Below are positions 14,574 through 31,865 of a stretch of DNA of 64,000 nt, in pieces. The stretch is taken from contig JBPFDX010000094.1 of assembly GCA_051061385.1 (NCBI GenBank), positions 7,252-71,251 on the forward strand, in the 5' to 3' direction. The notes beneath the pieces are model-generated. The model saw nothing but the letters and a program-made list of their open reading frames with translations. It did not search any database and was not told where the DNA came from. This stretch comes from Methylocystis sp. GTDB taxonomy: Bacteria; Pseudomonadota; Alphaproteobacteria; Rhizobiales; Beijerinckiaceae. Both the position numbers and the translations under genes were made by a program. Numbering within the stretch: position 1 is the stretch's first letter; every line of letters begins with the position of its first letter.

Positions 14574-14586
14574 GCGACTATGTCAC
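14574..14586. promoter_or_regulatory. Palindromic motif (reverse orientation) GTGAC-ATA-GTCGC (copy 2 of 4)
   Basis: Plus strand reads GCGACTATGTCAC, in the divergent promoter region between the hydrolase and the carbonic anhydrase. Confidence 0.55.
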
Positions 14587-15377: not shown

Positions 15378-15719
15378 TCACTCCACCGCGCCGCCGCGGG
15401 CGCGCCAGCCGCCGGTGCCCGGCGCATAATGGCGAATGTCGTTTCGGCCGACGTTTTGCGCCTGCGCAAGCGCCTTGGCCGATCGCCCGCCCGCCTGGCA
15501 GATCAGAACCACGTCGCCCTTCGGAAGCTTCGTCGGATCGAAGCTCGAGAGCGGCATGTTCTTGGCGCCCGGCACATGGCCGGCGCCATATTCGTGCGGC
15601 TCGCGCACGTCAACGACGGCGCAGGACTTGTCCGCCACGACGCGGCAGAAATCGTCATGCTCGATAGTCGGCGCCGAGCCGCCGCCGGCGAGTTTCGACA
15701 GGAGAGAGCCCAGAGTCAT
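15378..15719 (-). CDS. Single-domain rhodanese (sulfurtransferase)
   Basis: VVDVREPHEY, GHVPGA, active-site loop CQAGGRS, GGW. Confidence 0.9.
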   Translation of the reverse strand: MTLGSLLSKLAGGGSAPTIEHDDFCRVVADKSCAVVDVREPHEYGAGHVPGAKNMPLSSFDPTKLPKGDVVLICQAGGRSAKALAQAQNVGRNDIRHYAPGTGGWRARGGAVE

Positions 15720-15735
15720 TTTCGTTCCTTTCGTC

Positions 15736-16089
15736 TCAGGCTTGCTTTTCGGCGTCGAACTGGGAGAAGGCGGCGAGCGCATGGCTCGCATACATCACCG
15801 ACGGTCCGGCGCCCATGTAGATGCTCATGGCGAGCGTCTCCATCACCTCCTCGCGCGTGGCGCCGCGCTGCGACGCGGCTTTGGCGTGAAAGGCGATGCA
15901 ATCGTCGCAGCGCACTGCGACGCTGACCGCAAGCGCGATCAGTTCCTTTGTCTTGGCGTCGAGCGCGCCTTGCGCGCCCGCCGAGATCGCCATCGCCGAA
16001 AAGGCTTTCATCACCTCGGGCGAGCCGACCCGCAATTCGCGGATGTCGGCGGAAAGCTTCTTGGCGAGGGCCGCCCAGTCTTCGGTCAT
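15736..16089 (-). CDS. Carboxymuconolactone decarboxylase/AhpD-family protein
   Basis: GALDAKTKELIALAV, RCDDCIAFH (CxxC); ATGA overlap with the RND permease stop. Confidence 0.88.
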   Translation of the reverse strand: MTEDWAALAKKLSADIRELRVGSPEVMKAFSAMAISAGAQGALDAKTKELIALAVSVAVRCDDCIAFHAKAASQRGATREEVMETLAMSIYMGAGPSVMYASHALAAFSQFDAEKQA

Positions 16090-19000
16090 GAGGCGCTCCT
16101 TGGCGTTTCGTCGTCGCGCAGAACGACATAGATCGCGGGGATGACGAGCAGGGTGAGCGCCGTCGACGAGGCGAGGCCAAAGACGAGCGAAATGGCGAGA
16201 CCCTGAAAGATCGGATCGGTGAGAATAAAGGCCGCGCCGATGATCGCCGCGGCGGCGGTGAGAAAGATGGGCTTGAAGCGCACCGCGCCCGCCTCGATCA
16301 GCGCGGCGCGCAGCGTCATGCCGCGCGCCCGTAAATGCCGGATGAAGTCGACGAGCAGGATGGAATTGCGCACGACGATTCCGGCGAGCGCGATAAAGCC
16401 GATCATCGATGTCGCGGTGAAGGCGGCGTTGAACAAGATGTGGCCGATGACGATGCCGACGAGCGTCAGCGGCACCGGCGCCAGGATGACCAGCGGCAGT
16501 TTGAACGAGCCGAACTGCGCGACGACGAGAAGGTAGATGCCGAGCAGCGCCACCATGAAGGCTGCGCCCATGTCGCGGAAGGTGACATAGGTCACTTCCC
16601 ACTCGCCGTCCCAGAGCAGCGTCGGCTGCGAATCGTCGAGCGGCTGGCCGTGATATTTGATCGTCGGCGGTCCCGAAGGTCCCCAGTCCATCTTGTCGAT
16701 CGCGTCTTCGACCGCGAGCATGCCATAGATCGGCGCTTCCAAACGGCCGGCGACCTCGGCGCTGACCATTTCGGCGAAGCGGCCATTGTGACGGAAGATC
16801 GGGTAGGAGCCGAGTTCGCGCGTCGCCTTGACGACGTCGCCGAGTTCGACATTGGCGCCCTGGCGCTCGGTGCCGCCGGCGGGCAGCGGCGTTGACAGGA
16901 TTCCTTCGCCGGGCGTCATCGCCGAGCGCGGCAGCGCCACCGTTATGTCGACAGGCTTGGCGCCGCCGCCCTTTTGCGAAAAGCCGATCTTGACGCCGCC
17001 GACCAGGGCGCCGATCGTGTCGTAGACGGCGCGCTCCTCGACGCCGTGATACTCGAGCGCCTCCTGATCGATCTCGAAGCGCAGGCGCTCGGCGCGCTGA
17101 CCGTAGCTGTCGTCGGTGTCGACGACGAAATCGACGGCGTCGAAAGCCTTGCGCACCTTCGCTGCGAGATCGCGCCGCGATTGCGCGTCCGGACCATAGA
17201 CCTCGGCGAGCAGCGTCGACAGCACGGGCGGGCCCGGCGGCACTTCGACGACCTTGATCGCAGTGTGTTCGGGCGCCGGCAGTCCCTCGAGCTTCTTGCG
17301 AATATCGAGCGCAATCGCATGGCTCGCGCGGCTGCGCTCGCCTTTCGGCTGGAGATTGATCGCCAGATCGCCCATCTCGGGCGCGTTGCGCATGTAATAG
17401 TGCCGCACGAGGCCGTTGAAGTTGAAGGGCGCGGCGGCGCCCGCATAGGACTGAATGGAGGTCAGTTCCGGAATGTCCTTGAGGCGTTCCGCCGCCGCCG
17501 TCAGCACCCGGTCCGTTTCTTCGAGCGAAGCGCCGCGCGGCAGATCGACGACGACGGCGATCTCCGACTTGTTGTCGAAGGGCAGCAGTTTCACGCGCAC
17601 GGTCTTCGTTGCGAAGAGCGTCATTGAGAGAAGCGTCGCGAGGCCGACCGCCGTAAGAAACCACTGCGAGCGCTTGCGGCCTTTCAGCAACGGCGTCGCC
17701 ACGCGCACGTAGAAATTGCCCATGGCGCCGCGTTCATGCGCATGATCGACGCCGTCGCCGCGCTCCTGCGCGAAACGCTTGCCGGCGACCTTGAGCAGGA
17801 GCCAAGGCGTAATCGTCATGGCGACGAAGAAGGAGAAGATCATCGCAAGCGAAGCGTTCGCGGGAATGGGGCTCATATAGGGCCCCATCAGACCTGAGAC
17901 GAACATCATTGGCAGCAGGGCGGCGACGATCGTGAGCGTCGCGACGATCGTCGGATTGCCGACTTCCGCCACCGCCTCGACGGCCGTGTCGATCAGGCTG
18001 CGCGAGCCGCGCATATGCCAGTGGCGCACGATGTTCTCGACGACGACGATGGCGTCGTCGACGAGAATGCCGATCGAGAAGATAAGCGCGAAAAGGCTGA
18101 CGCGATTGATCGTATAGCCCATCAGCCAGGAGGCGAAGAGCGTGAGCAGAATCGTCGTCGGGATGATGACGAAGACGACGACGCCCTCGCGCCAGCCGAC
18201 CATCACGACGATGAGCGCCACGATCGAGACGGTCGCCAGCGCGAGATGGAACAGCAGCTCATTGGCCTTCTCGGTCGCCGTCTCGCCATAGTCGCGGGTC
18301 ACCGCGATCTCGATGTCGTCAGGAACGATGCGGCCTTTGACGGCCTCGAGCCGATGCATGATCTCATCGGCGACGACGACGGCGTTAGCGCCCTTGCGCT
18401 TGGCGATCGCGATGCTGACGGCGGGGCGCTTGTCGAGGCCGCCGGCGGCGTTGCGCGTCATGGTCCAGCTGCGCCGGTCGGGCTCGGCGGCGCCGACGCG
18501 CACCTCGGCCACGTCCTTCACATAGACCGGGCGGCCGTCTCTTGTGGTCAGCAGCAGCTGGCCGACGTCGGGGACGCCCTGCAGCGTCTGGCCGGCGACG
18601 ACAGGCACGGCGCGATTGCCCTCGCGGAACGCGCCGACGAGAAAGGAACGGTTGGCGTTGGTCAGCTTGTCGATCAGCTGATTGAGCGTCACGCCATATT
18701 GCGACAGGCGTTCGGGATCGGGCTCGACGCGGATCTGATTAGGGCTGCCGCCGACGATGTAGCTTAAGCCGACGTCATTGACCTTGGTGAGGTCGTGCTG
18801 CAATTCCTCGGCGACCTGATAGAGGCCATTGTCGGTCCAGCGATCGGCGCGCTCGGGCTTCGCCGAAAGCGTCAGCACGACGATCGCGACGTCGTCTATG
18901 CCGCGGCCAACGATCAGCGGCTCGGGAATGCCCTTCGGCAGATCGCTGATGTTGGCGCGCATCTTGTCGTGGATGCGCAGGACGGCGTTGTCCTGCGACG

Positions 19001-19322
19001 TGCCGACGTAAAAGCGCGCCGTGACCACCACATTGTCGTCGCGCGTCTGCGAATAGACGTGCTCGACGCCGTTGACGCCCTTGATGATGTCCTCGAGCGG
19101 GCGCGTGATGAGTTCGATCGCGTCTTCCGCCTTATAGCCATTGGCCGACACCATGATGTCGACCATCGGCACGGAGATCTGCGGCTCCTCCTCGCGCGGC
19201 AGCGAGCGCAGCGCGATCAGTCCGACAAGAATCGAAGCGAGCAGGAGGAGCGGCGTCAGCGGCGAATTGATGAAAGCGCGCGTCAGCGTGCCGGAAATGC
19301 CCGGACGAAATTCATCGCTCAT
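16086..19322 (-). CDS. RND efflux permease (AcrB/AcrD/AcrF family)
   Basis: PREEEPQI, GILVDDAIVVVENI, RNSILLVDF, RFKPIFLT; 1078 aa. Confidence 0.93.
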   Translation of the reverse strand: MSDEFRPGISGTLTRAFINSPLTPLLLLASILVGLIALRSLPREEEPQISVPMVDIMVSANGYKAEDAIELITRPLEDIIKGVNGVEHVYSQTRDDNVVVTARFYVGTSQDNAVLRIHDKMRANISDLPKGIPEPLIVGRGIDDVAIVVLTLSAKPERADRWTDNGLYQVAEELQHDLTKVNDVGLSYIVGGSPNQIRVEPDPERLSQYGVTLNQLIDKLTNANRSFLVGAFREGNRAVPVVAGQTLQGVPDVGQLLLTTRDGRPVYVKDVAEVRVGAAEPDRRSWTMTRNAAGGLDKRPAVSIAIAKRKGANAVVVADEIMHRLEAVKGRIVPDDIEIAVTRDYGETATEKANELLFHLALATVSIVALIVVMVGWREGVVVFVIIPTTILLTLFASWLMGYTINRVSLFALIFSIGILVDDAIVVVENIVRHWHMRGSRSLIDTAVEAVAEVGNPTIVATLTIVAALLPMMFVSGLMGPYMSPIPANASLAMIFSFFVAMTITPWLLLKVAGKRFAQERGDGVDHAHERGAMGNFYVRVATPLLKGRKRSQWFLTAVGLATLLSMTLFATKTVRVKLLPFDNKSEIAVVVDLPRGASLEETDRVLTAAAERLKDIPELTSIQSYAGAAAPFNFNGLVRHYYMRNAPEMGDLAINLQPKGERSRASHAIALDIRKKLEGLPAPEHTAIKVVEVPPGPPVLSTLLAEVYGPDAQSRRDLAAKVRKAFDAVDFVVDTDDSYGQRAERLRFEIDQEALEYHGVEERAVYDTIGALVGGVKIGFSQKGGGAKPVDITVALPRSAMTPGEGILSTPLPAGGTERQGANVELGDVVKATRELGSYPIFRHNGRFAEMVSAEVAGRLEAPIYGMLAVEDAIDKMDWGPSGPPTIKYHGQPLDDSQPTLLWDGEWEVTYVTFRDMGAAFMVALLGIYLLVVAQFGSFKLPLVILAPVPLTLVGIVIGHILFNAAFTATSMIGFIALAGIVVRNSILLVDFIRHLRARGMTLRAALIEAGAVRFKPIFLTAAAAIIGAAFILTDPIFQGLAISLVFGLASSTALTLLVIPAIYVVLRDDETPRSAS

Positions 19323-20308
19323 GGCGTCGACACCACGTCGCCGTCATGGAGACCGGAAAGAATTTCGACGCCGTCGCCATGCGCTTCGCCAGGCTGAACG
19401 ACGATCTCCTCGCCGGAGGCAAGGCGGACGAAATCCACGCCGGCGCGTCGATAGACGGCGGCGCGCGGGATGATGATCGTGTCGCGCTTGCCCGTCGTGA
19501 CGTAAACGCGGGCCCGTTCGCCGACGAAATAGTCGCCGAGCCCTACGACATCGACGTCGGCGATGACGCGGCCGCCCTGAATTTCGGGATAGACGATGCG
19601 CACGCGCCCCTGCTTGCGCTCACCGCCCGCTTCTTCGTGCAGGCCGCGCGCGCCGATCTCGACCTTGTCGCCGGCGCGCATGAACCGCGCGTGGCGCTCC
19701 GGCAGTTGCAGGCGCAGAATGTATTTGTCCTCGGCGATCGTCGCGATGGTTTCGCCGGGCATCACCACGCGGCCGACGGAGACAGGAATGGTGAGGATGC
19801 GTCCTGGCCCCGGCGCGCGCACCGAGCCCTCCGCCGCCTGTTGTTCGATCACGCTGCGATCCGAGCGCAGCGCGGCGAGGTTGCGGTCGGCGACGTCGAG
19901 CGCGGTCTTCGCGTGATCGAACAGCGCCTTCGTATAGACGCCGCGGCGGAAAAGCTCCTGCGCGCGGTCGAAGTCGGACTGCGCCTTGTCGCGCTGGGCC
20001 TGCTGCGAGCGGATGCGCTGGTCGAGCGCCTGCATCTGCAAAAACAGCTTCTGGTCGACGACCGAGGCGATCTCGGCGCCGCCGGCGACGTCGTCGCCCT
20101 CTTTAATCTTGAGCGCGCTCACCGTCCCGCCGATTCGTGCCCTAGCCGTCAGTTGATGCGCAGGCTCCACGGAAGCGACGACGGCCTTGAGGTCCTCGAC
20201 CGGGGCGACCCGGATCGTGACCTCTCCGGCCTTGGCGCCCAAGGAGAAGGCGAGCGCGGCGAGGAGCGCCGTCGTCGGCGAAAAATGGAGGCGGCGCATT
20301 TGTCTCAT
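19319..20308 (-). CDS. RND periplasmic adaptor (membrane fusion protein)
   Basis: Signal peptide, ARIGG lipoyl half-motifs flanking a coiled coil, C-terminal SGLHDGD. Confidence 0.9.
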   Translation of the reverse strand: MRQMRRLHFSPTTALLAALAFSLGAKAGEVTIRVAPVEDLKAVVASVEPAHQLTARARIGGTVSALKIKEGDDVAGGAEIASVVDQKLFLQMQALDQRIRSQQAQRDKAQSDFDRAQELFRRGVYTKALFDHAKTALDVADRNLAALRSDRSVIEQQAAEGSVRAPGPGRILTIPVSVGRVVMPGETIATIAEDKYILRLQLPERHARFMRAGDKVEIGARGLHEEAGGERKQGRVRIVYPEIQGGRVIADVDVVGLGDYFVGERARVYVTTGKRDTIIIPRAAVYRRAGVDFVRLASGEEIVVQPGEAHGDGVEILSGLHDGDVVSTP

Positions 20309-20321
20309 GCAGCCCAGTTAT

Positions 20322-20352
20322 ATGCAGAAAACGTAAATTAGCAATAGCGAAT
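20322..20352. promoter_or_regulatory. Putative SqrR/BigR tandem operator A
   Basis: ATGC-N8-TAAATTA-N8-GAAT, 13 bp upstream of the RND adaptor start. Confidence 0.65.
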
Positions 20353-20413
20353 TTAAGATCAGGAAAGGAAAGGACAGGGCGGCGCGGCGCCGCCCGACTT
20401 TCCTTCAGTGGCG

Positions 20414-20650
20414 TCAGCCCCAGAGATTGCACCAGCCGCGCGCGCTGACGGGCCCGCTCACCACGCCGCAGCCCGATGGCGGGTTGAACCAGGAGCAGTT
20501 GGCGCAGCTTTGCCGGCCGTTCGGCGCGCCGCGATAGTCGGCCGCCGATTTGCTCGACTTCGCTTGCGCCGTCGTCGCAGAAAGTCCAGCGGCGGCCGCG
20601 CCCAACAACAACATCAAGGAGCGGCGCGTCGGCGCGCGAAATTCCACCAT
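20414..20650 (-). CDS. High-potential iron-sulfur protein (HiPIP) with Tat signal
   Basis: TRRSLML twin-Arg motif; CANC-x8-C-x12-C with GWC; GGGAGG RBS. Confidence 0.88.
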   Translation of the reverse strand: MVEFRAPTRRSLMLLLGAAAAGLSATTAQAKSSKSAADYRGAPNGRQSCANCSWFNPPSGCGVVSGPVSARGWCNLWG

Positions 20651-20681
20651 TTCAACCTCCCTTGGCAATTCATCCGTTGCC

Positions 20682-20712
20682 GGACGATTCCATTAAATTA
20701 GATGAACGTAAT
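20682..20712. promoter_or_regulatory. Putative SqrR/BigR operator B (one good half)
   Basis: GGAC-N8-TAAATTA-N8-TAAT upstream of the HiPIP gene. Confidence 0.45.
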
Positions 20713-20774
20713 ATACCGTGTTCGCGCCGGCATGAATGCGACATAACGCTCTTTCACGCCTGCGATACGCTCGC

Positions 20775-20803
20775 TTGACAATTATATTCAATAATCATAA
20801 TTT
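20775..20803 (+). promoter_or_regulatory. Sigma70 promoter of the sqrR operon
   Basis: TTGACA-N17-TAATTT. Confidence 0.6.
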
Positions 20804-20816
20804 AGAAAACATGAAT
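20786..20816. promoter_or_regulatory. Putative SqrR/BigR tandem operator C (autoregulatory)
   Basis: ATTC-N8-TAATTTA-N8-GAAT covering the -10 box and start codon. Confidence 0.7.
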
Positions 20817-21170
20817 GTAAAAGCGATTGAGCTCGCGCCGAAAGCTGCGGAGGCCGAGAGCTTTCTAAAGGCTCTGGCCAACCGTCATCGGCTGATGGTG
20901 CTGTGCCAGCTCCACGCGGGCGAGCTGTCGGTGACAAAGCTGCAGGAGGCGATCGGGCTGAGCCAATCGTCGCTGTCGCAGCATCTCGCGCGGCTGCGCG
21001 AGGACAAGCTCGTCAAGACCCGCCGCGAATCCCAGACGATCTACTATTCCCTGGCCGACGGTAACGTCTCACGAATCATCGGACTGCTTTACGAGATGTT
21101 TTGCGCCGAGGAGTGCGGCAAGCCGGCCAAACCGCGCGCGCGCGCAAAATCAAAGGAACTCACGTCATGA
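20811..21170 (+). CDS. sqrR: ArsR-family persulfide-sensing repressor (SqrR/BigR type)
   Basis: LKALANRHRLMVLC (helix-2 Cys), SQSSLSQHLARLR, LYEMFC (helix-5 Cys). Confidence 0.85.
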   Translation: MNVKAIELAPKAAEAESFLKALANRHRLMVLCQLHAGELSVTKLQEAIGLSQSSLSQHLARLREDKLVKTRRESQTIYYSLADGNVSRIIGLLYEMFCAEECGKPAKPRARAKSKELTS

Positions 21171-21367
21171 GCATTGATCGCATCGTTATGGCCTTCGCAG
21201 GCGCCATGATCCTTTTGAGCCTGCTCCTGGCGCAGTTGTTCAGCCCATGGTGGCTCTTGCTTACGGCTTTCGTCGGCGTCAATCTGCTGCAGGCGGCGTT
21301 TACCGGACTCTGCCCGTTAGCGATGGCGCTGAAACGGTTCGGCGCCAGATCAGGCGCCGCTTTCTAG
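21167..21367 (+). CDS. DUF2892 (YgaP-like) membrane protein
   Basis: FVGVNLLQAAFTGLCP motif; ATGA overlap with sqrR. Confidence 0.88.
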   Translation: MSIDRIVMAFAGAMILLSLLLAQLFSPWWLLLTAFVGVNLLQAAFTGLCPLAMALKRFGARSGAAF

Positions 21368-21443
21368 GATTCATCAGCGTGTGCGCACAGGGCGCAGCGC
21401 GCACTTGGCTGGGCCTTTGATCGTTAGCGACGAAGAGCAGACG

Positions 21444-22112
21444 ATGCCTTTCGATTGGGTCGACGAAACGCCGTCCTTGCGCAGCCTCGACGCCGCGACG
21501 AAGACCCTTCTGCGCGACTCCGCCGTTCGCAAGCAAATCCCGCGCGGCGCCGTGCTGTTTCGGCCGGGCGACCAATGCGCGCAGTTCCCGCTGATCGTCT
21601 CGGGCACTGTGCGCGTGCAGCGGGTGACCGAGTCGGGCAGGGAAATCGTGCTCTATCGAGTCGGCGAGAATGAAACCTGCATTCTGACCACGGCGTCGCT
21701 GCTTTCGGACGACGCCTACGCCGCTGAAGGCGTCGCCGAGACTGACGTGATCGCCTATGTCGTCCCCGCCGATCGTTTCAACGCGCTGATGAATGCTTCC
21801 GAAAGCTTTCGCGCGCTGGTGTTCAACGGCTACAGCAAGCGTCTCGCGACCTTGATGTCGCGCATCGAGGAAATCGTCTGCACGCGCATCAATGTTCGTT
21901 TGGCGGAACGCCTTCTCGCGCTGCGCGACGCCGGCGACAAGATCGCCGCCACGCAGCAGGCGCTCGCCGCGGATCTCGGCACGGCGCGCGAAGTCGTCGG
22001 CCGCACGCTGAAAGCGTTCGAGCGTTCTGGCTGGGTAAAATTGTCGCGCGGCGGCGCCGAGATCGTCAATCCCGCGGCGTTGCGTTCGCTGTGCGCCGCA
22101 CAGCGTGACTAA
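21444..22112 (+). CDS. Crp/Fnr-family transcriptional regulator
   Basis: cNMP-like domain (GREIVLYRV, GETCILT) and HTH (TQQALAADLGTAREVVGRTL). Confidence 0.92.
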   Translation: MPFDWVDETPSLRSLDAATKTLLRDSAVRKQIPRGAVLFRPGDQCAQFPLIVSGTVRVQRVTESGREIVLYRVGENETCILTTASLLSDDAYAAEGVAETDVIAYVVPADRFNALMNASESFRALVFNGYSKRLATLMSRIEEIVCTRINVRLAERLLALRDAGDKIAATQQALAADLGTAREVVGRTLKAFERSGWVKLSRGGAEIVNPAALRSLCAAQRD

Positions 22113-22117
22113 GTCGC
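22105..22117. promoter_or_regulatory. Palindromic motif GTGAC-TAA-GTCGC (copy 3 of 4)
   Basis: Centred on the Crp/Fnr stop codon, 90 nt upstream of sqr. Confidence 0.6.
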
Positions 22118-22207
22118 GGACATGCGCGCGACAAGCGTGCATGTCGTGACAAAATGAGCGCAACCGTCAGCGCAAACTTTGTGCGCGCAAGCGCATGGGA
22201 GGATTGA

Positions 22208-23491: not shown

Positions 23492-23528
23492 CAGGGCCCC
23501 GCCGCCATGCAATGCTGGAGGAGAGTCG

Positions 23529-23687
23529 ATGCGGACTAGGCCGTTAAGGCGCGAGATCCTCCTCGCGCTGGCGTTTAAATTGCTGGCGCTCATCGCGCTC
23601 TACGTCCTGTTTTTCGGCCCCGCGCATCGTATCAAGGTGACGCCGGCGCAGATGGCGGAAGCGCTTTCCGCCGCCGCGCCGCGCTGA
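23529..23687 (+). CDS. cydP: Cytochrome bd small subunit CydP-like, 52 aa (not in ORF track)
   Basis: MRTRPLRREILLALAFKLLALIALYVLFFGP; GGAGGAG RBS; directly precedes cydA. Confidence 0.75.
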   Translation: MRTRPLRREILLALAFKLLALIALYVLFFGPAHRIKVTPAQMAEALSAAAPR

Positions 23688-23720
23688 CGCCCGTCAGCTG
23701 ACTTCTGTCAGGAGCCCAAT

Positions 23721-25295: not shown

Positions 25296-25309
25296 GAAAG
25301 GCGACAGCG

Positions 25310-26449: not shown

Positions 26450-26466
26450 GCGGGAGAACACGAAGC

Positions 26467-26574
26467 ATGTGGTATTTTTCCTGGATATTGGGTCTGGGGC
26501 TCGCCTGCGCCTTCGCCATTCTCAACGCCATGTGGCTTGAGCTAGATGACGACGACGAGCGGCGGAAGAAATAG
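26467..26574 (+). CDS. cydX: Cytochrome bd small subunit CydX, 35 aa (not in ORF track)
   Basis: MWYFSWILGLGLACAFAILNAMWLE. Confidence 0.92.
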   Translation: MWYFSWILGLGLACAFAILNAMWLELDDDDERRKK

Positions 26575-26588
26575 GCGGCTCCCGGAGC

Positions 26589-26601
26589 GAGACATAGTCG
26601 C
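26589..26601. promoter_or_regulatory. Palindromic motif GAGAC-ATA-GTCGC (copy 4 of 4)
   Basis: Intergenic, 61 nt upstream of the second DUF2892 gene. Confidence 0.5.
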
Positions 26602-26662
26602 TGAGCGATATTGCGCGACGCGATAGGCTCGCATCGTAACCCGTCGCGGGAAGGAGACAGTC

Positions 26663-26848
26663 ATGGAAGCCAATATTGGAAGGACCGATCGCATCATCCG
26701 GATCGTCGTCGGTCTCTTGTTGCTCAGTCTCGTTTTCATCGGGCCGCAGACCTTATGGGGGCTCGTCGGCCTTATCCCGCTGACGACGGCGTTCGTGAAC
26801 TTCTGCCCCGCCTATAAGCTGCTCGGCATGGATACGCTCGGCAAATAG
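26663..26848 (+). CDS. DUF2892 (YgaP-like) membrane protein
   Basis: NIGRTDRIIRIVVG...FCPAYKLLG; GGAG RBS. Confidence 0.88.
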   Translation: MEANIGRTDRIIRIVVGLLLLSLVFIGPQTLWGLVGLIPLTTAFVNFCPAYKLLGMDTLGK

Positions 26849-26936
26849 TCGGCGCGCGCGGGAATACGCAAAGACGGTCGACGCTTGGGGGCGCCGACCG
26901 CTGTAAGACGCTGAGCGGCGAAGCGTTCCACGTTAA

Positions 26937-28553
26937 ATGCACGAAACGGCGATCACCTTTCACGCCCGCGGCATGCATTGTCACGGCTGCGAACATGTCA
27001 TCGAAGCGGCGATCAAGAAGCTCGCCGGCGTGCGCAGCGTCTCGGCGAGCTATCCGACGGAAACGGTCGTCGTCGACTATGACGCTGACGCCACGAATTT
27101 CCGCGCGATCCGCGAAAGGGTCGAGCAGAACGGCTACCGCGTCGTTCTAACCGAGGAGGCGAAGCGCCGCCGTTCGCCGCTCGTGCGACTGGCGATCATC
27201 GTCGCGGCGCTCGCCGGGCTCGCCGGTTTGATTCTCTTCGATACGCGCTGGATCAGCGCCGAGGGCGAACCCGACATCGCCCAGCATATGAGTCTCGGCC
27301 TTCTGTTCCTGCTGGGGCTCCTGACAGGCTTCCACTGCGTCGGCATGTGCGGCGCTTTCGTCGTGAGCTATGCGGCGGCCGATGCGCGCGCCGGACGCTC
27401 GTCCTTCGTGTCGCACCTCGCCTATGGCGCCGGAAAGACGCTGTCCTACACGGCGATCGGCGCAGCCTTCGGCTGGCTCGGCGCTTTCATCGCCTTCACG
27501 CCGATGCTGCGCGGCGTCGCCGGAGTCGCCGCAGGCGCGTTCCTCATCATCTTCGGCCTCAACATGCTTGGGCTCTTCGCGCCGCTGCGCCGCTTCCGGC
27601 TCGGCCTGCCGGGGCCGCTGCAGAACTGGGTCAATCGCGAGGCCGGCGGCGCGCGCCATCGGCCGTTCGTGATCGGCCTTCTCAACGGGCTGATGATCGC
27701 CTGCGGTCCGTTGCAGGCGATGTATGTGATGGCGGCGGGGACAGGCAGCCCCATCGAAGGCGCGAAGACGCTCTTCGTCTTCGGCCTTGGAACCTTGCCG
27801 GTGATGCTCGCCTTCGGCGCGCTGACGACGGTGCTTTCGGGCGCCGTCACCCATCGATTGCTGACGGCCTCTGGCGTGATCGTCGTCGCGCTCGGCGCGG
27901 TGATGATCAATCGTGGTCTCATTCTCACGGGTTCAGGCGCCGATCTCGCGTCGGTGATGACCAGCTGGCGGCATTCGGCGCCCGTTGAACTTGCGCAGAC
28001 GTCGCAGGATGCGACTGTCGCGCCGCAAACGCAAACAATCGAGATGGAAGCCAATGGGCTGGGATTCACGCCGAGCCGCTTCACGCTTCTGCGCGGCGTG
28101 CCGGTCAAATGGGTGATCAACGCCACGGAAGTGACGACCTGCAACAATCGAATCGTCGTTCCATCGATGAACCTCGAATTCGACGTCAAACCGGGGCGGC
28201 AGACGATCGAGTTCACGCCCGAGAAAACCGGCGTCATTCCGTGGAGCTGCTGGATGGGCATGTTGCGCGGCGAGTTTGTCGTCGTAGACGCGAAGTCCGG
28301 GCAGGCCTCGCAGCCTGCACAGCCAGCCGCGCCCGCTTCGGACGTTCAGGCCACGCCTGGGGCGACGCCGAGCGCCCCGCCAGCCGCAAAGACCTACACG
28401 GCGCGCCGCGGCGACACGCTGCGTTCGATCGCGAAGCGACTCTATGGCGACGAAAAGCGCTGGCGCGACATTGCCGCCGCCAACCCTGCGCTGAATCCCA
28501 AGAAGCTGCGGCAAGGACAAATCATCAATTTGCCAGTCATCGCGCAGCCGTGA
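26937..28553 (+). CDS. Fusion protein: HMA domain + DsbD_2/TauE-like membrane domain + cupredoxin + LysM
   Basis: GMHCHGC; GFHCVGMCG and ACGPLQAMY; TCNNRI...WSCWMGM; YTARRGDTLRSIAKRLYG...ANP...LRQGQIINLP. Confidence 0.85.
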   Translation: MHETAITFHARGMHCHGCEHVIEAAIKKLAGVRSVSASYPTETVVVDYDADATNFRAIRERVEQNGYRVVLTEEAKRRRSPLVRLAIIVAALAGLAGLILFDTRWISAEGEPDIAQHMSLGLLFLLGLLTGFHCVGMCGAFVVSYAAADARAGRSSFVSHLAYGAGKTLSYTAIGAAFGWLGAFIAFTPMLRGVAGVAAGAFLIIFGLNMLGLFAPLRRFRLGLPGPLQNWVNREAGGARHRPFVIGLLNGLMIACGPLQAMYVMAAGTGSPIEGAKTLFVFGLGTLPVMLAFGALTTVLSGAVTHRLLTASGVIVVALGAVMINRGLILTGSGADLASVMTSWRHSAPVELAQTSQDATVAPQTQTIEMEANGLGFTPSRFTLLRGVPVKWVINATEVTTCNNRIVVPSMNLEFDVKPGRQTIEFTPEKTGVIPWSCWMGMLRGEFVVVDAKSGQASQPAQPAAPASDVQATPGATPSAPPAAKTYTARRGDTLRSIAKRLYGDEKRWRDIAAANPALNPKKLRQGQIINLPVIAQP

Positions 28554-28617
28554 CGATTCGTCTCGTTCGCGACGCCACGTTGCGCGCTACGCTAGTCTTG
28601 GAACAGAGGGGGAGGCC

Positions 28618-29166
28618 ATGATCAAAAAATTCCTGTTCGCCGCGGCTTGCGGGCTGTCGCTATTCGCCGGCGCCGCCGCCTTCGCCGAGGACGATGACGA
28701 TGATCAGGGCGAGCACATGATGCACGAGCAGCATATGAAGATGTCGCCGAAGATGGGCGACACGCGCCAGGAGGTCGATGTTCCATCGCCGATGCGCACG
28801 CAAATGCTCTCTCACATGCGCGGCCACGCCGAGGCGATCGCCGAGATCCTCGCCGCGCTCGGCAAGGGCGACGGCGCGGCGGCGGCCAAAGTCGCCGACG
28901 CGCGCCTCGGCATGGCGTCTTCGGGCGCAGCGGCGTGCAAGCCGAACGCCAAGAGCGGCGAACTCGGCGATATGCCGGCGATGATGGCGCGACACATGCC
29001 CGACGAGATGCGCGCGCTCGGTCTGACGATGCACGAACAGGCGAGCAAATTCGCCCAGGAGGCGGCCAAGATCGGGCCCGGCGGCGACATGCGTCCCGCG
29101 CTTGCCGAATTGTCGCAAGTCGTGCAAGCCTGCAACGCCTGTCACGCCGCCTATCGCCTCGATTAG
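28618..29166 (+). CDS. Periplasmic class II (c'-type) cytochrome c with acidic and His/Met-rich N-terminus
   Basis: Signal peptide; C-terminal CNACH; helical body. Confidence 0.8.
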   Translation: MIKKFLFAAACGLSLFAGAAAFAEDDDDDQGEHMMHEQHMKMSPKMGDTRQEVDVPSPMRTQMLSHMRGHAEAIAEILAALGKGDGAAAAKVADARLGMASSGAAACKPNAKSGELGDMPAMMARHMPDEMRALGLTMHEQASKFAQEAAKIGPGGDMRPALAELSQVVQACNACHAAYRLD

Positions 29167-29257
29167 CGCTCGCGTGCGGCGCTCTAAATTATGTGAACGA
29201 TCACGTCATCTGGATTTGGGCGATTCGCCCAAATCCAGCGTGATCTAGGAGCCGACC

Positions 29258-30043
29258 GTGCGCATCGCGACCTGGAACGTCAATTCCGTAAGGCAGCGTC
29301 TCGCGCCGCTTCTCGCCTTTCTGCGGGACGCTGCGCCTGACGCGCTCTGCCTGCAGGAAACCAAGTGCGAGGATCACGCTTTCCCGCGGCTTGAGATCGA
29401 AGACGCGGGATATAACGTCGCCGTCCACGGGCAGAAGGGGTTCAACGGCGTCGCGATCCTGTCGGAGTCGCCGCTGCAGGACGTCGTCCTCGGCCTGCCA
29501 GGCTTCGACGGCGAGGCGCAGTCGCGCTACATCGAGGCGGTTCTCGCCGACGGCGCCGGCGGCGTGATGCGCGTCGCGTCCATCTATGCGCCAAACGGCA
29601 ATCCGCCGGATACGCAGAAATACTCTTACAAACTCGCCTTCATGGAGGCGCTGACGCGACATGCCGACGCGCTGCTGCGTCTCGAAGAGCCGACGGTTCT
29701 CGCCGGCGACTACAACGTCATTCCCGATGCGCGCGACGTCTATGAAGCCTCGGCGTGGCTTGGCGACGCATTATTTTTGCCGCAGACTCGCGCGGCCTAT
29801 CAGCGCCTGATCAATCTCGGCTACGCCGATGCGCTGCGGGCGACGTCGGACGAAGGCGGGCTCTACACGTTCTGGGATTATCAGGCCGGCGCCTGGCAGA
29901 AGAACAAGGGCCTTCGCATCGACCACCTTCTGCTCTCGCCGCGCGCAGCGGATCGGCTGGCGCGCGTGGAGATCGTCAAGTCGATGCGCGCCGGCGACAA
30001 GCCCTCCGATCACGTCGCGATCTACGCCGATTTCGCTGCGTGA
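29258..30043 (+). CDS. xth: Exodeoxyribonuclease III
   Basis: IATWNVNS, LQETK, GDYN, RIDHLL, SDH; GTG start. Confidence 0.95.
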   Translation: MRIATWNVNSVRQRLAPLLAFLRDAAPDALCLQETKCEDHAFPRLEIEDAGYNVAVHGQKGFNGVAILSESPLQDVVLGLPGFDGEAQSRYIEAVLADGAGGVMRVASIYAPNGNPPDTQKYSYKLAFMEALTRHADALLRLEEPTVLAGDYNVIPDARDVYEASAWLGDALFLPQTRAAYQRLINLGYADALRATSDEGGLYTFWDYQAGAWQKNKGLRIDHLLLSPRAADRLARVEIVKSMRAGDKPSDHVAIYADFAA

Positions 30044-30837
30044 TCGAAAAGCCCAAGCGCGCCGCCGCTGCGCCAGAGCACATAGAGCGCCACCGCGAAG
30101 ACCACCGTGGCGAAGACGGCGCTCAGCGCGCCGCGCATTTTCGACAGTCGCCGCGCCACCGCGGCGCCGATCAGCCCGCCGAACGCGCCGCCGATCACCA
30201 GCGTTCCGGCAAGCTCCCATTCGACGAGGTCTGAATAGGCGTAGTTCGCCGCCGTCGTGACCGCAAAGGCGGCGACGGCGACGAGCGACGAGCCGATGGC
30301 GTTCAGGATCGGCATGTCGGAAGCGAACATCAGCCCGGGCACGATCAGGAAGCCGCCGCCGATCCCGAAGAAGCCGGAAAGCGCGCCCGCCGTCACGCCG
30401 GCGCCCGCGAGCCGCGGAAAATTCTCGCGGTTGAGTCTTACCGAGGGATATCCCAAGGAGCCCCGACGGCGCAGCATGAGATAGGACACGACGATCATCA
30501 GCAGCGCGAAGAGCGCGAGCAGCTTCTCGCCATTGATGATCTTGCCGAGCGTCGATCCTGCGAAGGCGCCGCCGATGCCGAAAAGCGCGAAAACGGAAGC
30601 GCAGCGCCATTTGATAGTGCGCGCGCGCGCATGATTGGCGAGACTCATCAGCGCATTGACCGCGACCGCCGCCGCGCTCGAGCCGATCGCGACATGCGGA
30701 TTCGGCACGCCAACGAAATAGACGAGAAGCGGCACGGCAAGCACCGAGCCGCCGCCGCCGACCAGGCCGAGCGTAAAGCCGACGAGGGCGCCGGAGATCA
30801 GGCCGAGCACGGCGTCGAGGGGAAGAGCCGTCAGCAT
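30022..30837 (-). CDS. TauE/SafE sulfite exporter
   Basis: GLVGGGGSVLAVP, GFFGIGGGFLIVP repeats. Confidence 0.9.
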   Translation of the reverse strand: MLTALPLDAVLGLISGALVGFTLGLVGGGGSVLAVPLLVYFVGVPNPHVAIGSSAAAVAVNALMSLANHARARTIKWRCASVFALFGIGGAFAGSTLGKIINGEKLLALFALLMIVVSYLMLRRRGSLGYPSVRLNRENFPRLAGAGVTAGALSGFFGIGGGFLIVPGLMFASDMPILNAIGSSLVAVAAFAVTTAANYAYSDLVEWELAGTLVIGGAFGGLIGAAVARRLSKMRGALSAVFATVVFAVALYVLWRSGGALGLFDHAAKSA

Positions 30838-30867
30838 GTCAGCATGTCGCTCCTTCGCGCGTGTAAT

Positions 30868-30898
30868 ATTAGCACTTGCTTATTTAGCTATAGCGCAT
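30868..30898. promoter_or_regulatory. Putative SqrR/BigR tandem operator D
   Basis: ATTA-N8-TTATTTA-N8-GCAT in the divergent tauE/pdo promoter region. Confidence 0.65.
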
Positions 30899-30977
30899 AT
30901 ATCTGACGGCGCAAGCACGAAAGGCGAAAGCACGAAGGAAGAGAAGCGCTTGAGCGCTGCACTTGAAGGAGAGATCG

Positions 30978-31865
30978 ATGTCGCAGGCGCCGTCAGTGAG
31001 GGCCTTCTTCGACGAGCCCACCAATACGATCACCTATATTGTCAGCGATCCCGCCACTAAGCGTGCGGCGATCGTCGACCCCGTGCTCGACTATGACCCG
31101 GCGAGCGGCGTCGCAGATTCGCATTCCGTCGACGCCATCCTCGCCGAGGCGGCGCGGGAGGGTTTGACAATCGACTGGGTGCTTGAGACCCACGCGCACG
31201 CCGACCACCTTTCCGCCGCCCAGATCGTCAAGGCGGCGACGGGGGCGAAGATCGGCATCGGCGAACACATCGACAAGGTCCAGAAGCTCTTCAAGCCGGT
31301 GTTCGGCGCTGACGACCTGAAGGCCGACGGCGGCTGCTTCGACCACCTCTTCAAGGACGGCGAGCGGTTCAAGATCGGCGAGATCGAGGCCGAAACGATC
31401 TACACGCCCGGCCACACGCCGGCCGACGTCGCCTACAGGATCGGCGATGCGGTGTTTGTCGGCGACACGCTGTTCATGCCTGACTATGGGACGGCGCGCG
31501 CGGATTTCCCGGGCGGCGACGCGCATGCGCTCTATCGGTCGATCCGGCGAATTCTCTCGCTGCCGCCGCAGACGCGGCTCTTCATGTGCCACGACTACAA
31601 GGCGCCGGGACGCGACGCCTACGCCTGGGAGACGACGGTCGCGGAGCAGCGCGCCAAGAACGTGCAGATCAGAGACGGCGTCAGCGAAGAGGAATTCGTG
31701 GCCCAGCGCCAGAAGCGGGACAAGGGGCTCGCCGCCCCGCGTCTGCTGCTGCCGTCGATTCAAGTGAACATTCGCGCCGGCAAGTTTCCGCCGCCGCAGG
31801 AGGGCGGCGCGCGCTTCCTCCGCATCCCGGTGAAGTTCACGGGCGCCGCGGCGCGCGCCGGCTGA
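30978..31865 (+). CDS. Persulfide dioxygenase (MBL fold, Blh/SdoA type)
   Basis: DPVLDYD, ETHAHADHLS, TPGHTPA, GDTLFMPDYGTARADFPGG, CHDY, LLLPSIQVN. Confidence 0.92.
   Translation: MSQAPSVRAFFDEPTNTITYIVSDPATKRAAIVDPVLDYDPASGVADSHSVDAILAEAAREGLTIDWVLETHAHADHLSAAQIVKAATGAKIGIGEHIDKVQKLFKPVFGADDLKADGGCFDHLFKDGERFKIGEIEAETIYTPGHTPADVAYRIGDAVFVGDTLFMPDYGTARADFPGGDAHALYRSIRRILSLPPQTRLFMCHDYKAPGRDAYAWETTVAEQRAKNVQIRDGVSEEEFVAQRQKRDKGLAAPRLLLPSIQVNIRAGKFPPPQEGGARFLRIPVKFTGAAARAG

What the first reader, a model, noticed from the sequence alone, without database searches (positions are those of the whole stretch)
15378..31865. Self-contained sulfide-oxidation/reactive-sulfur cluster with its own terminal oxidase, export and metal modules
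Seen in about 16.5 kb: rhodanese, AhpD-like CxxC protein, RND pump, HiPIP, two-Cys SqrR/BigR repressor, two DUF2892, Crp/Fnr, type I SQR, cydPABX, HMA-DsbD_2-cupredoxin-LysM, cytochrome c', TauE and persulfide dioxygenase. Known: SQR + rhodanese + PDO + TauE is the heterotrophic sulfide-to-sulfite/thiosulfate pathway, and bd oxidases resist sulfide. What I do not recognise as described is the full assembly with bd oxidase, HiPIP, RND and a copper-type module under two operator systems. If the host is a Methylocystis-type methanotroph (inferred), the cluster could protect Cu enzymes and respiration from H2S or supply extra reductant. No mobility genes flank it, so it looks resident rather than recently acquired.
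Basis: partly seen in the sequence, partly recalled or inferred. Interest (0 to 1): 0.85.

Follow-up and report, generated by a model that had tools for sequence, protein, structure and literature searches.

The report
Sulfide-oxidation locus with bd oxidase
A methane-eating bacterium (Methylocystis) keeps its sulfide-oxidising enzyme, a sulfide-proof oxygen reductase, an efflux pump and sulfite-handling genes in one chromosomal locus under two conserved DNA switches, and a similar gene set recurs in unrelated iron-oxidising bacteria, so it is a real functional unit that has not been tested at the bench.

Summary
One gene was missed: a housekeeping exonuclease III (xth) lies inside the stretch. 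The host is Methylocystis. The locus is resident, with no mobility genes, and has the same gene order in 42-43 of 78 Methylocystis species genomes.

It is not one operon. It is two interleaved regulons.
- **SqrR/BigR-type operator:** about 22 bp, four copies. They are the only hits scoring at least 12 of 13 in the 3.49-Mb genome. They sit at the promoters of MFP-RND-AhpD-rhodanese, HiPIP, sqrR and tauE/pdo.
- **13-bp palindrome (GWGAC-WWA-GTCGC):** it lies at the stop codon of the Crp/Fnr gene, in front of sqr-cydPABX. Further copies precede the DUF2892-HMA/DsbD_2/cupredoxin genes and a beta-carbonic anhydrase.

One species lacks exactly the SqrR-controlled genes and keeps the rest. sqr next to cydAB, together with RND, DUF2892, rhodanese, TauE, AhpD-like, Crp-like and SqrR genes, recurs in a second alphaproteobacterial family and in Mariprofundaceae (Zetaproteobacteria). 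In Mariprofundaceae, SqrR-type boxes precede cydA.

The most likely function is sulfide oxidation by SQR through quinol to a sulfide-insensitive bd oxidase, with export of the sulfur products. All functional steps are inferred. This is a new variant of a known kind.

The parts
14574..14586 (.). 13-bp palindrome GCGACTATGTCAC upstream of a beta-carbonic anhydrase (likely start 14690, end 15274); possible outlying member of the Crp-type regulon
   Evidence: one of 5 genome-wide matches to G[AT]GAC-WWA-GTCGC; conserved upstream of the CA gene in 30 related loci
15378..15719 (-). single-domain rhodanese (113 aa counted from Met25 of the 137-aa ORF; loop CQAGGRS)
   Evidence: PF00581 E 1.8e-12; last gene of the RND operon; 62-94% identical in Methylocystis loci
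15736..16092 (-). AhpD-like / CMD-family protein with CxxC (RCDDCIAFH); its start overlaps the RND stop codon
   Evidence: PF02627 E 1.7e-23 and TIGR00778 E 3.6e-17; 53-58% identical copies in Mariprofundaceae clusters
16086..19322 (-). RND permease of the HAE (AcrB/Mdt-like) type, motif VDDAIVVVEN
   Evidence: PF00873 E 4e-147; sequence; found next to SQR and/or SqrR in many loci
19319..20308 (-). periplasmic adaptor (MFP) of the RND pump
   Evidence: TIGR01730 at 115 bits, above its cut-off
20334..20355 (.). SqrR-type operator 1 (TAAATTAGCAATAGCGAATTTA) in front of MFP-RND-AhpD-rhodanese
   Evidence: 12 of 13 core positions; conserved at this place in the FULL-arrangement loci that keep HiPIP
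20377..20395 (-). G+C-rich hairpin after HiPIP, terminator-like; separates HiPIP from the RND operon
   Evidence: 8 G-C pairs, loop of 3
20414..20668 (-). HiPIP with a twin-arginine-type signal (TRRSLM) and four cysteines
   Evidence: PF01355 at 22.1 bits against a cut-off of 22, borderline; NF041615 E 4.6e-10, below its cut-off; no HiPIP match above threshold in several FULL loci
20694..20715 (.). SqrR-type operator 2 (TAAATTAGATGAACGTAATATA) on the HiPIP side of the divergent region
   Evidence: 13 of 13
20783..20804 (.). SqrR-type operator 3, lying between the -35 (TTGACA, 20775-20780) and across the -10 (TAATTT, 20798-20803) of the sqrR promoter; the ATG at 20811 implies a leaderless or very short leader
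   Evidence: 13 of 13; the promoter hexamers were read from the sequence by eye
20811..21170 (+). SqrR/BigR-type two-cysteine ArsR repressor
   Evidence: best solved relative is R. capsulatus SqrR (E 4e-24), with both sensing cysteines aligned; NF040642 BigR at 92 bits, below its cut-off
21167..21367 (+). DUF2892 / YgaP-like transmembrane protein a (motif FTGLCP)
   Evidence: PF11127 E 1.2e-12
21381..22112 (+). Crp/Fnr-family regulator without an Fe-S cysteine cluster (likely start 21444); recognition helix RE..GR
   Evidence: PF00027 and PF13545; sequence; 39% identical homologues in Mariprofundaceae clusters
22105..22117 (.). 13-bp palindrome GTGACTAAGTCGC overlapping the crp stop codon, upstream of sqr-cydPABX
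   Evidence: present in 42 of 42 FULL loci; lies between crp and cydA/cydP in 3 variant-lineage loci
22119..22145 (.). inverted repeat GACATGC-N13-GCATGTC, found only in the window's sub-lineage at the place where the sister lineage has a fifth SqrR box
22208..23491 (+). type I sulfide:quinone oxidoreductase
   Evidence: E 2.6e-160 to A. ferrooxidans SQR, with three cysteines aligned; the only SQR in the genome
23529..26574 (+). cydP-cydA-cydB-cydX, cytochrome bd quinol oxidase with a ~520-residue CydA
   Evidence: NF045611, PF01654, TIGR00203, TIGR02106; gaps of 15-38 bp between genes
26589..26601 (.). 13-bp palindrome GAGACATAGTCGC upstream of the second DUF2892 gene
   Evidence: conserved in 31 loci
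26663..26848 (+). DUF2892 / YgaP-like transmembrane protein b (motif FVNFCP)
   Evidence: PF11127 E 1.9e-22
26937..28553 (+). HMA - DsbD_2 membrane domain - CupA-like cupredoxin - LysM fusion; putative Cu(I)-handling membrane protein
   Evidence: Pfam domains; the cupredoxin part matches S. pneumoniae CupA at E 4.8e-8; retained in the species that lacks sqr
28618..29166 (+). divergent class II (cytochrome c'-like) cytochrome with a Met/His-rich N-terminal stretch
   Evidence: PF01322 at 29.6 bits; E 0.0016 to cytochrome c' structures
29258..30043 (+). exodeoxyribonuclease III (xth); a backbone housekeeping gene, not part of the system
   Evidence: TIGR00195 at 222 bits; at this place also in the sqr-less species
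30022..30837 (-). TauE/SafE-family exporter
   Evidence: PF01925 E 8.5e-49
30865..30886 (.). SqrR-type operator 4 in the divergent tauE/pdo region
   Evidence: 11 of 13; conserved in nearly all FULL loci that reach this region
30963..31865 (+). type II persulfide dioxygenase (motif HAHADH); no fused sulfurtransferase domain
   Evidence: E 1.6e-96 to P. putida PDO2 (4YSK); matches only the C-terminal dioxygenase part of Blh

Best explanation
This is a resident sulfide / reactive-sulfur response and respiration locus of Methylocystis. It is built from two interleaved regulons on a housekeeping backbone. The first regulon is controlled by a two-cysteine SqrR/BigR-type repressor. When sulfane sulfur bridges its cysteines it should leave four AT-rich operators. 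That would switch on its own operon (sqrR-DUF2892a, with read-through into crp), HiPIP, MFP-RND-AhpD-rhodanese, tauE and pdo. The second regulon is marked by a 13-bp palindrome, most likely bound by the adjacent Crp/Fnr-family protein, whose signal is unknown. It sits in front of sqr-cydPABX, DUF2892b-HMA/DsbD_2/cupredoxin-cytochrome c' and a beta-carbonic anhydrase. Proposed chemistry: type I SQR oxidises H2S to sulfane sulfur and reduces quinone. The copper-free, sulfide-insensitive bd oxidase re-oxidises the quinol with O2, so this branch bypasses the six heme-copper oxidases that sulfide would poison. PDO and rhodanese convert thiol persulfide to sulfite and thiosulfate, and TauE exports them. 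The HAE-type RND pump removes a sulfur product, probably hydrophobic zero-valent sulfur or polysulfide, using an outer-membrane factor encoded elsewhere. Shown here: gene families, catalytic and sensing residues, operators, conservation, loss of the SqrR-controlled genes together in one species, and recurrence in other lineages. Inferred: every regulatory and biochemical step.
For: Families and key residues. The four SqrR boxes are the only hits of at least 12 of 13 in 3.49 Mb. They are conserved in place in related loci, and the sister lineage has a fifth box in front of sqr. Box 3 overlaps the sqrR promoter. The palindrome has 5 genome-wide matches, 4 of them in a 17.5-kb stretch of the window; in 1.44 Mb of related loci it lies almost only at crp/sqr, cydX/DUF2892b and the CA gene. 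The same arrangement is found in 42-43 of 78 Methylocystis species genomes. Genome G151 lacks exactly the SqrR-box genes and sqr at three separate places, and by the CydAB tree it is sister to a clade that carries the cluster, which points to loss. sqr lies directly before cydAB, with RND, DUF2892, rhodanese, TauE, AhpD-like and SqrR genes nearby, in alphaproteobacterial family f21 and in Mariprofundaceae. SqrR-type boxes lie upstream of cydA in four Mariprofundaceae loci (L177, L179, L180, L183), and the palindrome GTGACAATGTCAC lies upstream of DUF2892-SQR in L178 and L179. The genome has six heme-copper oxidase subunit I genes, a single SQR and no SoxB. Literature: bd oxidase is sulfide-insensitive and cydAB is induced by sulfide, with SQR and CydAB predicted to be linked through the quinone pool (PMC4815019, PMC7315123, PMC9774250); micromolar H2S inhibits CH4 oxidation in M. 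bryophila, and its authors expected a sulfide-insensitive oxidase (PMC12319191). Environmental RNA-seq contigs cover several of the genes (weak evidence).
Against: There are no expression data with and without sulfide, and no binding data for either regulator. In the window's own sub-lineage sqr and cyd have no SqrR box of their own, so their sulfide control would be indirect, through read-through from sqrR and/or higher Crp levels. The bd oxidase ortholog is also present in Methylocystis species without sqr and is usually the only bd oxidase, so it certainly has roles beyond sulfide. In some variant-lineage species, including M. bryophila, sqr and cyd lie far apart. A 5-3-5 palindrome has unusual spacing for a Crp/Fnr-family site. 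The substrate of the RND pump is a guess. The metatranscriptome that covers the locus best has flat, DNA-like depth.
Confidence: 0.7

Rival explanations
1. These are two independent neighbours. crp-cydPABX-DUF2892b-HMA/DsbD_2/cupredoxin-cytochrome c' would be a low-oxygen or copper-limitation unit (a copper-free oxidase plus a Cu(I) handler) that has nothing to do with sulfide. The SqrR-controlled genes would merely have been inserted beside and into it.
For: G151 keeps this unit intact without any sulfide gene. The CydA ortholog is in 68 of 78 genomes and is mostly the only bd oxidase. The unit has its own operator, and in the window's lineage it has no SqrR box. The cupredoxin domain is CupA-like.
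Against: sqr sits between that unit's operator and cydP in every locus with the full arrangement (42 of 42). sqr-cydAB adjacency arose again in family f21 and in Mariprofundaceae. There, SqrR-type boxes precede cydA, and the palindrome precedes DUF2892-SQR. Sulfide induces cydAB in E. coli and A. baumannii (PMC9774250, PMC7315123).
Confidence: 0.15
2. The locus serves mainly for energy conservation (mixotrophic sulfide respiration that supplements methane oxidation) rather than for detoxification.
For: SQR feeding a bd oxidase is a complete, proton-motive-force-generating H2S:O2 chain (established bioenergetics of bd oxidases). Methylacidiphilum fixes CO2 with H2S as its energy source using SQR and a sulfide-insensitive oxidase (PMC10205796). 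The same set occurs in lithotrophic Mariprofundaceae.
Against: The genome has no Sox system. bd oxidase has a low energy yield. A persulfide-sensing repressor, exporters and a pump are typical of stress-response loci (PMC7315123). The two roles are not mutually exclusive.
Confidence: 0.1
3. The true inducers and substrates are other sulfur compounds, for example COS/CS2 through the neighbouring beta-carbonic anhydrase, methanethiol, or internally made persulfides, rather than environmental H2S.
For: The beta-CA gene carries the same palindrome as sqr and abuts the cluster in most related loci. SqrR-type sensors react to sulfane sulfur, not to H2S itself (PMC12423496).
Against: No COS or CS2 hydrolase signature was tested here. 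The CA gene is also present in the sqr-less genome G151. SQR uses H2S.
Confidence: 0.05

Closest known systems
SqrR regulon of Rhodobacter capsulatus and BigR operons of Xylella, Agrobacterium and Acinetobacter
   Same: A two-cysteine ArsR-family persulfide sensor with both cysteines conserved; autoregulation from an AT-rich palindrome that overlaps the promoter; targets include sqr, PDO, rhodanese and TauE-type exporters. A published neighbourhood survey also lists RND pumps among the neighbours of such regulators (PMC12423496).
   Different: Here the regulator's boxes cover an RND-AhpD-rhodanese operon and a HiPIP gene. A bd oxidase operon is embedded in the locus, and a second regulator with a different operator sits between sqrR and sqr. 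I could not retrieve the published operator sequences, so the similarity of the boxes to them is not verified.
Escherichia coli ygaVP and sulfide-resistant respiration by cytochrome bd
   Same: YgaV is an SqrR/BigR homologue. YgaP carries the same transmembrane domain as the DUF2892 proteins here (PF11127). cydAB transcripts rise in a ygaV mutant and with sulfide, and bd oxidase keeps respiration going in sulfide (PMC9774250, PMC4815019).
   Different: In E. coli the genes are scattered and there is no SQR. Here the DUF2892 proteins lack the rhodanese domain, and sqr and cydPABX are adjacent and co-directional, 38 bp apart.
Acinetobacter baumannii sulfide stimulon (FisR/BigR)
   Same: The same functional categories are induced by sulfide: SQR, PDO, TauE, CydAB, and copper import and chaperone genes. 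The authors proposed that SQR and CydAB are linked through the quinone pool (PMC7315123).
   Different: That is a dispersed stimulon with a sigma-54 activator (FisR) as the main sensor. Here the functions are gathered in one locus under SqrR and a Crp-like regulator.
Methylacidiphilum fumariolicum SolV: SQR plus a sulfide-insensitive terminal oxidase
   Same: A methanotroph that pairs SQR with a sulfide-insensitive oxidase to make a path from H2S to O2 (PMC10205796).
   Different: That organism uses a type III SQR and a ba3-type heme-copper oxidase, the genes are not clustered, and it is a verrucomicrobium. Here the SQR is type I, the oxidase is a copper-free bd type, and the two are adjacent and co-directional.
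Staphylococcus aureus cst operon and the Cupriavidus pinatubonensis pdo-sqr operon
   Same: The core route of SQR, PDO, rhodanese and TauE from sulfide to sulfite and thiosulfate (as summarised in PMC7315123 and PMC5702731).
   Different: Those operons contain no terminal oxidase, RND pump, AhpD-like protein, DUF2892 or HiPIP, and they use other sensors (CstR, FisR). In the recurrent core found here, PDO is dispensable: none was found near sqr in the variant Methylocystis lineage (one exception) or in the Mariprofundaceae loci.

Membership tests
SqrR/BigR persulfide-sensing ArsR repressors | ArsR-type winged helix with the two sensing cysteines (C41 and C107 of R. capsulatus SqrR) | tested here: met
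   best solved relatives are 6O8K/6O8L (SqrR, E 4e-24); LMVLCQL and YEMFCA align with the two cysteines. The NCBIfam BigR model scores 92 bits, below its equivalog cut-off of 155.
SqrR/BigR persulfide-sensing ArsR repressors | Palindromic operator at its own and its target promoters | tested here: met
   a 22-bp imperfect palindrome occurs four times. These are the only hits of at least 12 of 13 in the genome. The motif is conserved in relatives and is found next to SqrR homologues in Blastochloris and Mariprofundus. Binding itself was not tested.
SqrR/BigR persulfide-sensing ArsR repressors | Release from DNA on formation of a polysulfide bridge | not testable with these tools
   Needs EMSA or mass spectrometry with persulfide donors.
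Type I sulfide:quinone oxidoreductase | Flavoprotein fold with the three conserved cysteines of the A. ferrooxidans / A. aeolicus enzymes | tested here: met
   E 2.6e-160 over residues 2-424 to 3SZ0/3T2Z. The motifs SICT, SCFGPAYEYA and NAVC(L/F)AD align.
Type II persulfide dioxygenase | Metallo-beta-lactamase fold of about 295 aa, close to P. putida PDO2, with the metal motif HxHxDH | tested here: met
   4YSK at E 1.6e-96 and 9G8T at E 2.9e-104. HAHADH is seen in the translation. There is no fused DUF442 or rhodanese domain, so it is not a Blh equivalog (389 bits against a cut-off of 625).
Cytochrome bd-I-type quinol oxidase | CydA, CydB and the small subunit CydX encoded together | tested here: met
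   PF01654 at 574 bits, TIGR00203 at 448 bits, TIGR02106 at 70 bits; CydP (NF045611) at 56.9 bits. Heme ligands and sulfide insensitivity were not tested.
HAE-type tripartite RND efflux pump | Permease with the TM4 Asp-Asp relay, a periplasmic adaptor and an outer-membrane factor | tested here: inconclusive
   The permease (VDDAIVVVEN) and the adaptor are present. No OMF is encoded in the window. An OMF lies next to sqr in the variant Methylocystis loci, in G006 and in M. erugo. The best OMF homologue in this genome (63% identity) is on contig C3, next to PCMT and DUF2497 genes.
FNR (oxygen-sensing Fe-S member of Crp/Fnr) | N-terminal cysteine cluster that binds a [4Fe-4S] centre | tested here: not met
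   there is no cysteine before residue 66. The protein belongs to the Crp/Fnr superfamily only (PF00027 and PF13545), and every NCBIfam equivalog scores far below its cut-off.
CupA-like Cu(I)-binding cupredoxin | Cupredoxin fold with Cys ... Cys-x-Met-x-Met ligands | tested here: met
   residues 365-449 match CupA (2MRY/4F2E) at E 4.8e-8 and the CopA N-terminal domain (4F2F). The motif C...CWMGM is seen in the translation. Metal binding was not tested.
Cytochrome c' (class II cytochrome c) | Four-helix bundle with a C-terminal CxxCH | tested here: inconclusive
   CNACH is present at the C-terminus. Pfam gives 29.6 bits against 26.5, and the solved structures match only at E 0.0016. No structure was predicted.

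The most novel reading that the evidence does not exclude
The recurrent core (type I SQR, cydAB, a tripartite HAE-type RND pump, two DUF2892 membrane proteins, an AhpD-like CxxC protein, rhodanese, TauE, DUF302, a Crp-like regulator with a GTGAC-N3-GTCAC site, and SqrR) could be a PDO-independent sulfide-disposal system shared by Alpha- and Zetaproteobacteria. In it, the zero-valent sulfur or polysulfide made by SQR would be handed over by the small cysteine proteins and expelled across both membranes by the RND pump, while a dedicated bd oxidase takes the electrons. That would be a new physiological substrate class for RND pumps.
Probability: 0.3. Interest if true: 0.8.

Novelty: new variant of a known kind. 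Interest (0 to 1): 0.6.

Why it matters
Aerobic methanotrophs live where methane and H2S rise together. Micromolar sulfide blocks methane oxidation in Methylocystis (PMC12319191). How proteobacterial methanotrophs cope with sulfide has been called an open question (PMC10205796). This locus gives a concrete, genetically testable answer for a globally abundant wetland, soil and wastewater genus: named genes, two candidate regulators, and nucleotide-level operators.

The same assembly in iron-oxidising Zetaproteobacteria shows that pairing SQR with a bd oxidase and an RND pump is a general solution. It also assigns a context to several uncharacterised families: DUF2892, DUF302, an AhpD-like CxxC protein and an orphan Crp-family regulator.

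Tried and rejected
- **Recent acquisition:** rejected. The flanks are housekeeping genes, G+C is ordinary, and synteny holds across the genus.
- **RND pump as a metal exporter:** rejected, because the TM4 motif is the HAE-type VDDAIVVVEN.
- **Crp/Fnr protein as an oxygen-sensing FNR:** rejected, because it has no N-terminal cysteines.
- **A private second oxidase:** true only in part. The window genome has a second cydAB on contig C99, but in most species the cluster copy is the only one.
- **Expression evidence from public runs:** the best metatranscriptome (X2) has flat, DNA-like depth. Other RNA runs give only scattered contigs. Both show presence of transcripts at most.
- **Published operator sequences of SqrR or BigR:** I could not obtain them. 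The papers are not held, and a search for 'BigR box' found nothing. The operator assignment therefore rests on position, uniqueness and co-occurrence with SqrR homologues.
- **A paper describing an sqr-cydAB operon or this assembly:** seven full-text searches found none. This shows absence from the held library, not proof that nobody has described it.
- **The inverted repeat at 22119-22145:** it shows no compensatory changes in relatives, so I did not pursue it as an RNA element.
- **The terminator scan:** apart from the HiPIP hairpin it was no better than shuffled sequence.

Full report
**Observation**

- On the minus strand: rhodanese, an AhpD/CMD protein with RCDDC, an RND permease, its adaptor (MFP), and a HiPIP.
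- On the plus strand: an SqrR/BigR-type ArsR regulator, a DUF2892 protein, a Crp/Fnr-family regulator, SQR, cydP-cydA-cydB-cydX, a second DUF2892, an HMA-DsbD_2-cupredoxin-LysM fusion, and a weak cytochrome c'-like protein.
- Then tauE (minus strand) and pdo (plus strand) as a divergent pair.

Four corrections apply.
- A clear exodeoxyribonuclease III gene (29258-30043) lies between the cytochrome and tauE.
- The Crp/Fnr protein has no N-terminal cysteine cluster.
- The RND permease has the HAE-type motif VDDAIVVVEN rather than a heavy-metal-type one.
- No outer-membrane factor is encoded nearby.

The flanks are housekeeping genes without mobility genes. The host is Methylocystis: the SQR is 97% identical to that of M. 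silviterrae.

**Family membership**

- The SQR is 64% identical to the type I enzyme of Acidithiobacillus ferrooxidans, and the three catalytic cysteines align.
- The regulator's best solved relative is R. capsulatus SqrR, and both sensing cysteines are conserved.
- The PDO is a type II enzyme, matching P. putida PDO2 at E 1.6e-96. It carries HAHADH and has no fused sulfurtransferase domain.
- The cupredoxin domain of the fusion protein matches the Cu(I) chaperone CupA.
- The genome holds a single SQR, six heme-copper oxidase subunit I genes, a second cydAB on contig C99 (67% identical), and no SoxB.

**Two operator systems**

Alignment of orthologous intergenic regions showed a shared AT-rich imperfect palindrome, TAAATTA-N9-AATATA. 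It is read more widely as TATATTAG-N6-CTAATATA.

A scan of the whole 3.49-Mb genome found the only hits of at least 12 of 13 in this locus, plus an 11-of-13 site between tauE and pdo. The four sites are:
- 20334-20355, in front of the MFP-RND-AhpD-rhodanese operon and just after a terminator-like hairpin that closes HiPIP;
- 20694-20715, on the HiPIP side of the divergent region;
- 20783-20804, between the -35 and across the -10 of the sqrR promoter, whose ATG at 20811 leaves almost no leader;
- 30865-30886, between tauE and pdo.

The boxes are at the same places in the related loci. The sister lineage has a fifth box directly upstream of sqr, whereas the window's lineage has an unrelated inverted repeat there.

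The second element is a 13-bp palindrome, G[AT]GAC-WWA-GTCGC. It has five matches genome-wide, and four of them lie in a 17.5-kb stretch of the window:
- upstream of a 140-aa ORF with no family match (9146);
- upstream of the beta-carbonic anhydrase (14574);
- overlapping the crp stop codon in front of sqr (22105);
- in front of the second DUF2892 gene (26589).

In 1.44 Mb of related loci it occurs almost only at these places. In the variant lineage it lies between crp and cydA or cydP in three loci. Its constant position next to crp makes the Crp-like protein the obvious candidate binder. The 5-3-5 spacing is unusual for that family, and binding is untested.

**Distribution within the genus**

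Of 78 Methylocystis species genomes, 59 have the SQR. Forty-three of these have an SQR at least 82% identical, and 42 of the fetched loci show the window's arrangement, including xth and the flanking genes.

Fifteen loci of a second lineage, which includes M. heyeri and M. bryophila, show a variant: TauE-Rhod-AhpD-RND-MFP, divergent from SqrR-DUF2892-DUF2892-SQR-DUF302-OMF. In eight of these loci cydABX follows, preceded by crp in six.

One complete genome (G151) has CA-crp-cydPABX-DUF2892b-HMA fusion-cytochrome c'-xth-exoR. It lacks, at three separate places, exactly the genes that carry SqrR boxes, together with sqr. In a CydAB tree it is sister to a clade that carries the cluster, so loss is the parsimonious reading. 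This natural deletion separates the two regulons.

The bd oxidase ortholog is present in 68 of 78 genomes and is usually the only bd oxidase. It is therefore not a private extra oxidase in most species.

**Distribution beyond the genus**

SQR with DUF2892 and MFP-RND, with or without SqrR, AhpD and rhodanese, is common in other genera of the family and in Gallionellaceae. In Blastochloris tepida, SqrR and rhodanese face MFP-RND across a near-perfect copy of the operator.

In samples of 401 genomes each at order and at phylum rank, sqr directly next to cydA was found in three places.
- Methylocystis itself.
- Two genomes of another alphaproteobacterial family. One of them has TauE, DUF2892, SqrR, SQR-CydA-CydB-CydX, and Rhod-DUF2892-MFP-RND.
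- At least eight genomes of Mariprofundaceae (Zetaproteobacteria), named through.

The Mariprofundaceae loci carry SqrR, OMF-MFP-RND, two DUF2892, TauE, rhodanese, DUF302, a Crp/Fnr homologue (39% identical), SQR, CydAB and the AhpD-like protein (53-58% identical), in several different gene orders. SqrR-type boxes lie upstream of cydA in four of them (L177, L179, L180, L183). The palindrome GTGACAATGTCAC lies upstream of DUF2892-SQR in L178 and L179. PDO, HiPIP, the HMA fusion and the cytochrome were not found in these loci. Recurrence in different orders across classes is the strongest evidence here that the linkage is functional.

**Mechanism (inferred)**

- Sulfide is oxidised by SQR, and the quinol is re-oxidised by the copper-free bd oxidase. 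This oxidase type is known to resist sulfide and to be induced by it elsewhere (PMC4815019, PMC7315123, PMC9774250).
- Sulfane sulfur inactivates SqrR. That would release the pump operon, HiPIP, tauE and pdo, and also sqrR-DUF2892a. With a 14-77-bp gap and no terminator, transcription probably runs on from there into crp.
- Higher levels of the Crp-like protein could then raise sqr-cydPABX and the DUF2892b-HMA-cytochrome genes.
- PDO and rhodanese would make sulfite and thiosulfate, and TauE would export them.
- The HAE-type pump may expel zero-valent sulfur or polysulfide. The best homologue of the cluster-encoded OMF of relatives lies on contig C3 next to PCMT and DUF2497 genes. Such a pump would explain why PDO is dispensable in the recurrent core.
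- The copper-type fusion stays with the cyd unit in G151. I read it as part of a copper-sparing oxidase module. It fits the copper-homeostasis response to sulfide seen in A. baumannii (PMC7315123), but it is not shown to be sulfide-related here.

**Comparison with what is known, and novelty**

Each element has precedent:
- SqrR/BigR regulons;
- the SQR-PDO-rhodanese-TauE route;
- sulfide-resistant bd respiration;
- SQR paired with an insensitive oxidase in Methylacidiphilum (PMC10205796);
- a published neighbourhood survey that lists RND pumps and TauE among the neighbours of SqrR-like regulators (PMC12423496).

A 2025 study of M. bryophila noted its SQR and its bd oxidase separately (PMC12319191). 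In that species the two are indeed far apart. Seven full-text searches found no description of an sqr-cydAB operon or of this assembly.

I therefore class it as a new variant of a known kind. It is well supported as a genomic unit and untested as physiology. Public RNA data add only that several of the genes are transcribed in sediments and bioreactors.

Noticed in passing
window 9146-9770: The same 13-bp palindrome (GTGACTAAGTCGC, 9146-9158) lies about 190 bp upstream of a 140-aa ORF (9348-9770). The ORF has an N-terminal membrane anchor, several cysteines and no Pfam match. It may be a further member of the Crp-type regulon.
   Followed up: partly
window 14574-15274: A beta-class carbonic anhydrase (likely start 14690) abuts the rhodanese end of the cluster and carries the palindrome about 105 bp upstream. 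It is also present in the sqr-less genome G151. A COS/CS2 hydrolase role was not tested.
   Followed up: partly
window 20775-20813: The sqrR promoter hexamers end 7 bp before the ATG at 20811, and there is no Shine-Dalgarno sequence, so sqrR is probably translated from a leaderless mRNA. A divergent promoter-like site on the minus strand (20821-20794) overlaps the same operator.
   Followed up: no
genome contig C99:12393-15128: A second cydAB (CydA 67% identical). Only about 9 of 78 Methylocystis genomes have this paralogue. Its context was not examined.
   Followed up: partly
L134:10684-12614 and other variant-lineage loci: DUF302 and a TolC-like outer-membrane factor lie directly downstream of sqr in the M. 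heyeri / M. bryophila lineage. DUF302 also recurs in the Mariprofundaceae clusters.
   Followed up: partly
window 37119-38279: A fusion of an ArsR-type HTH domain with a SAM-dependent methyltransferase lies directly upstream of metF-metH.
   Followed up: no
window 22119-22145: The inverted repeat GACATGC-N13-GCATGTC between crp and sqr is unique in the genome and conserved only in the window's sub-lineage. It sits where the sister lineage has an SqrR box.
   Followed up: partly
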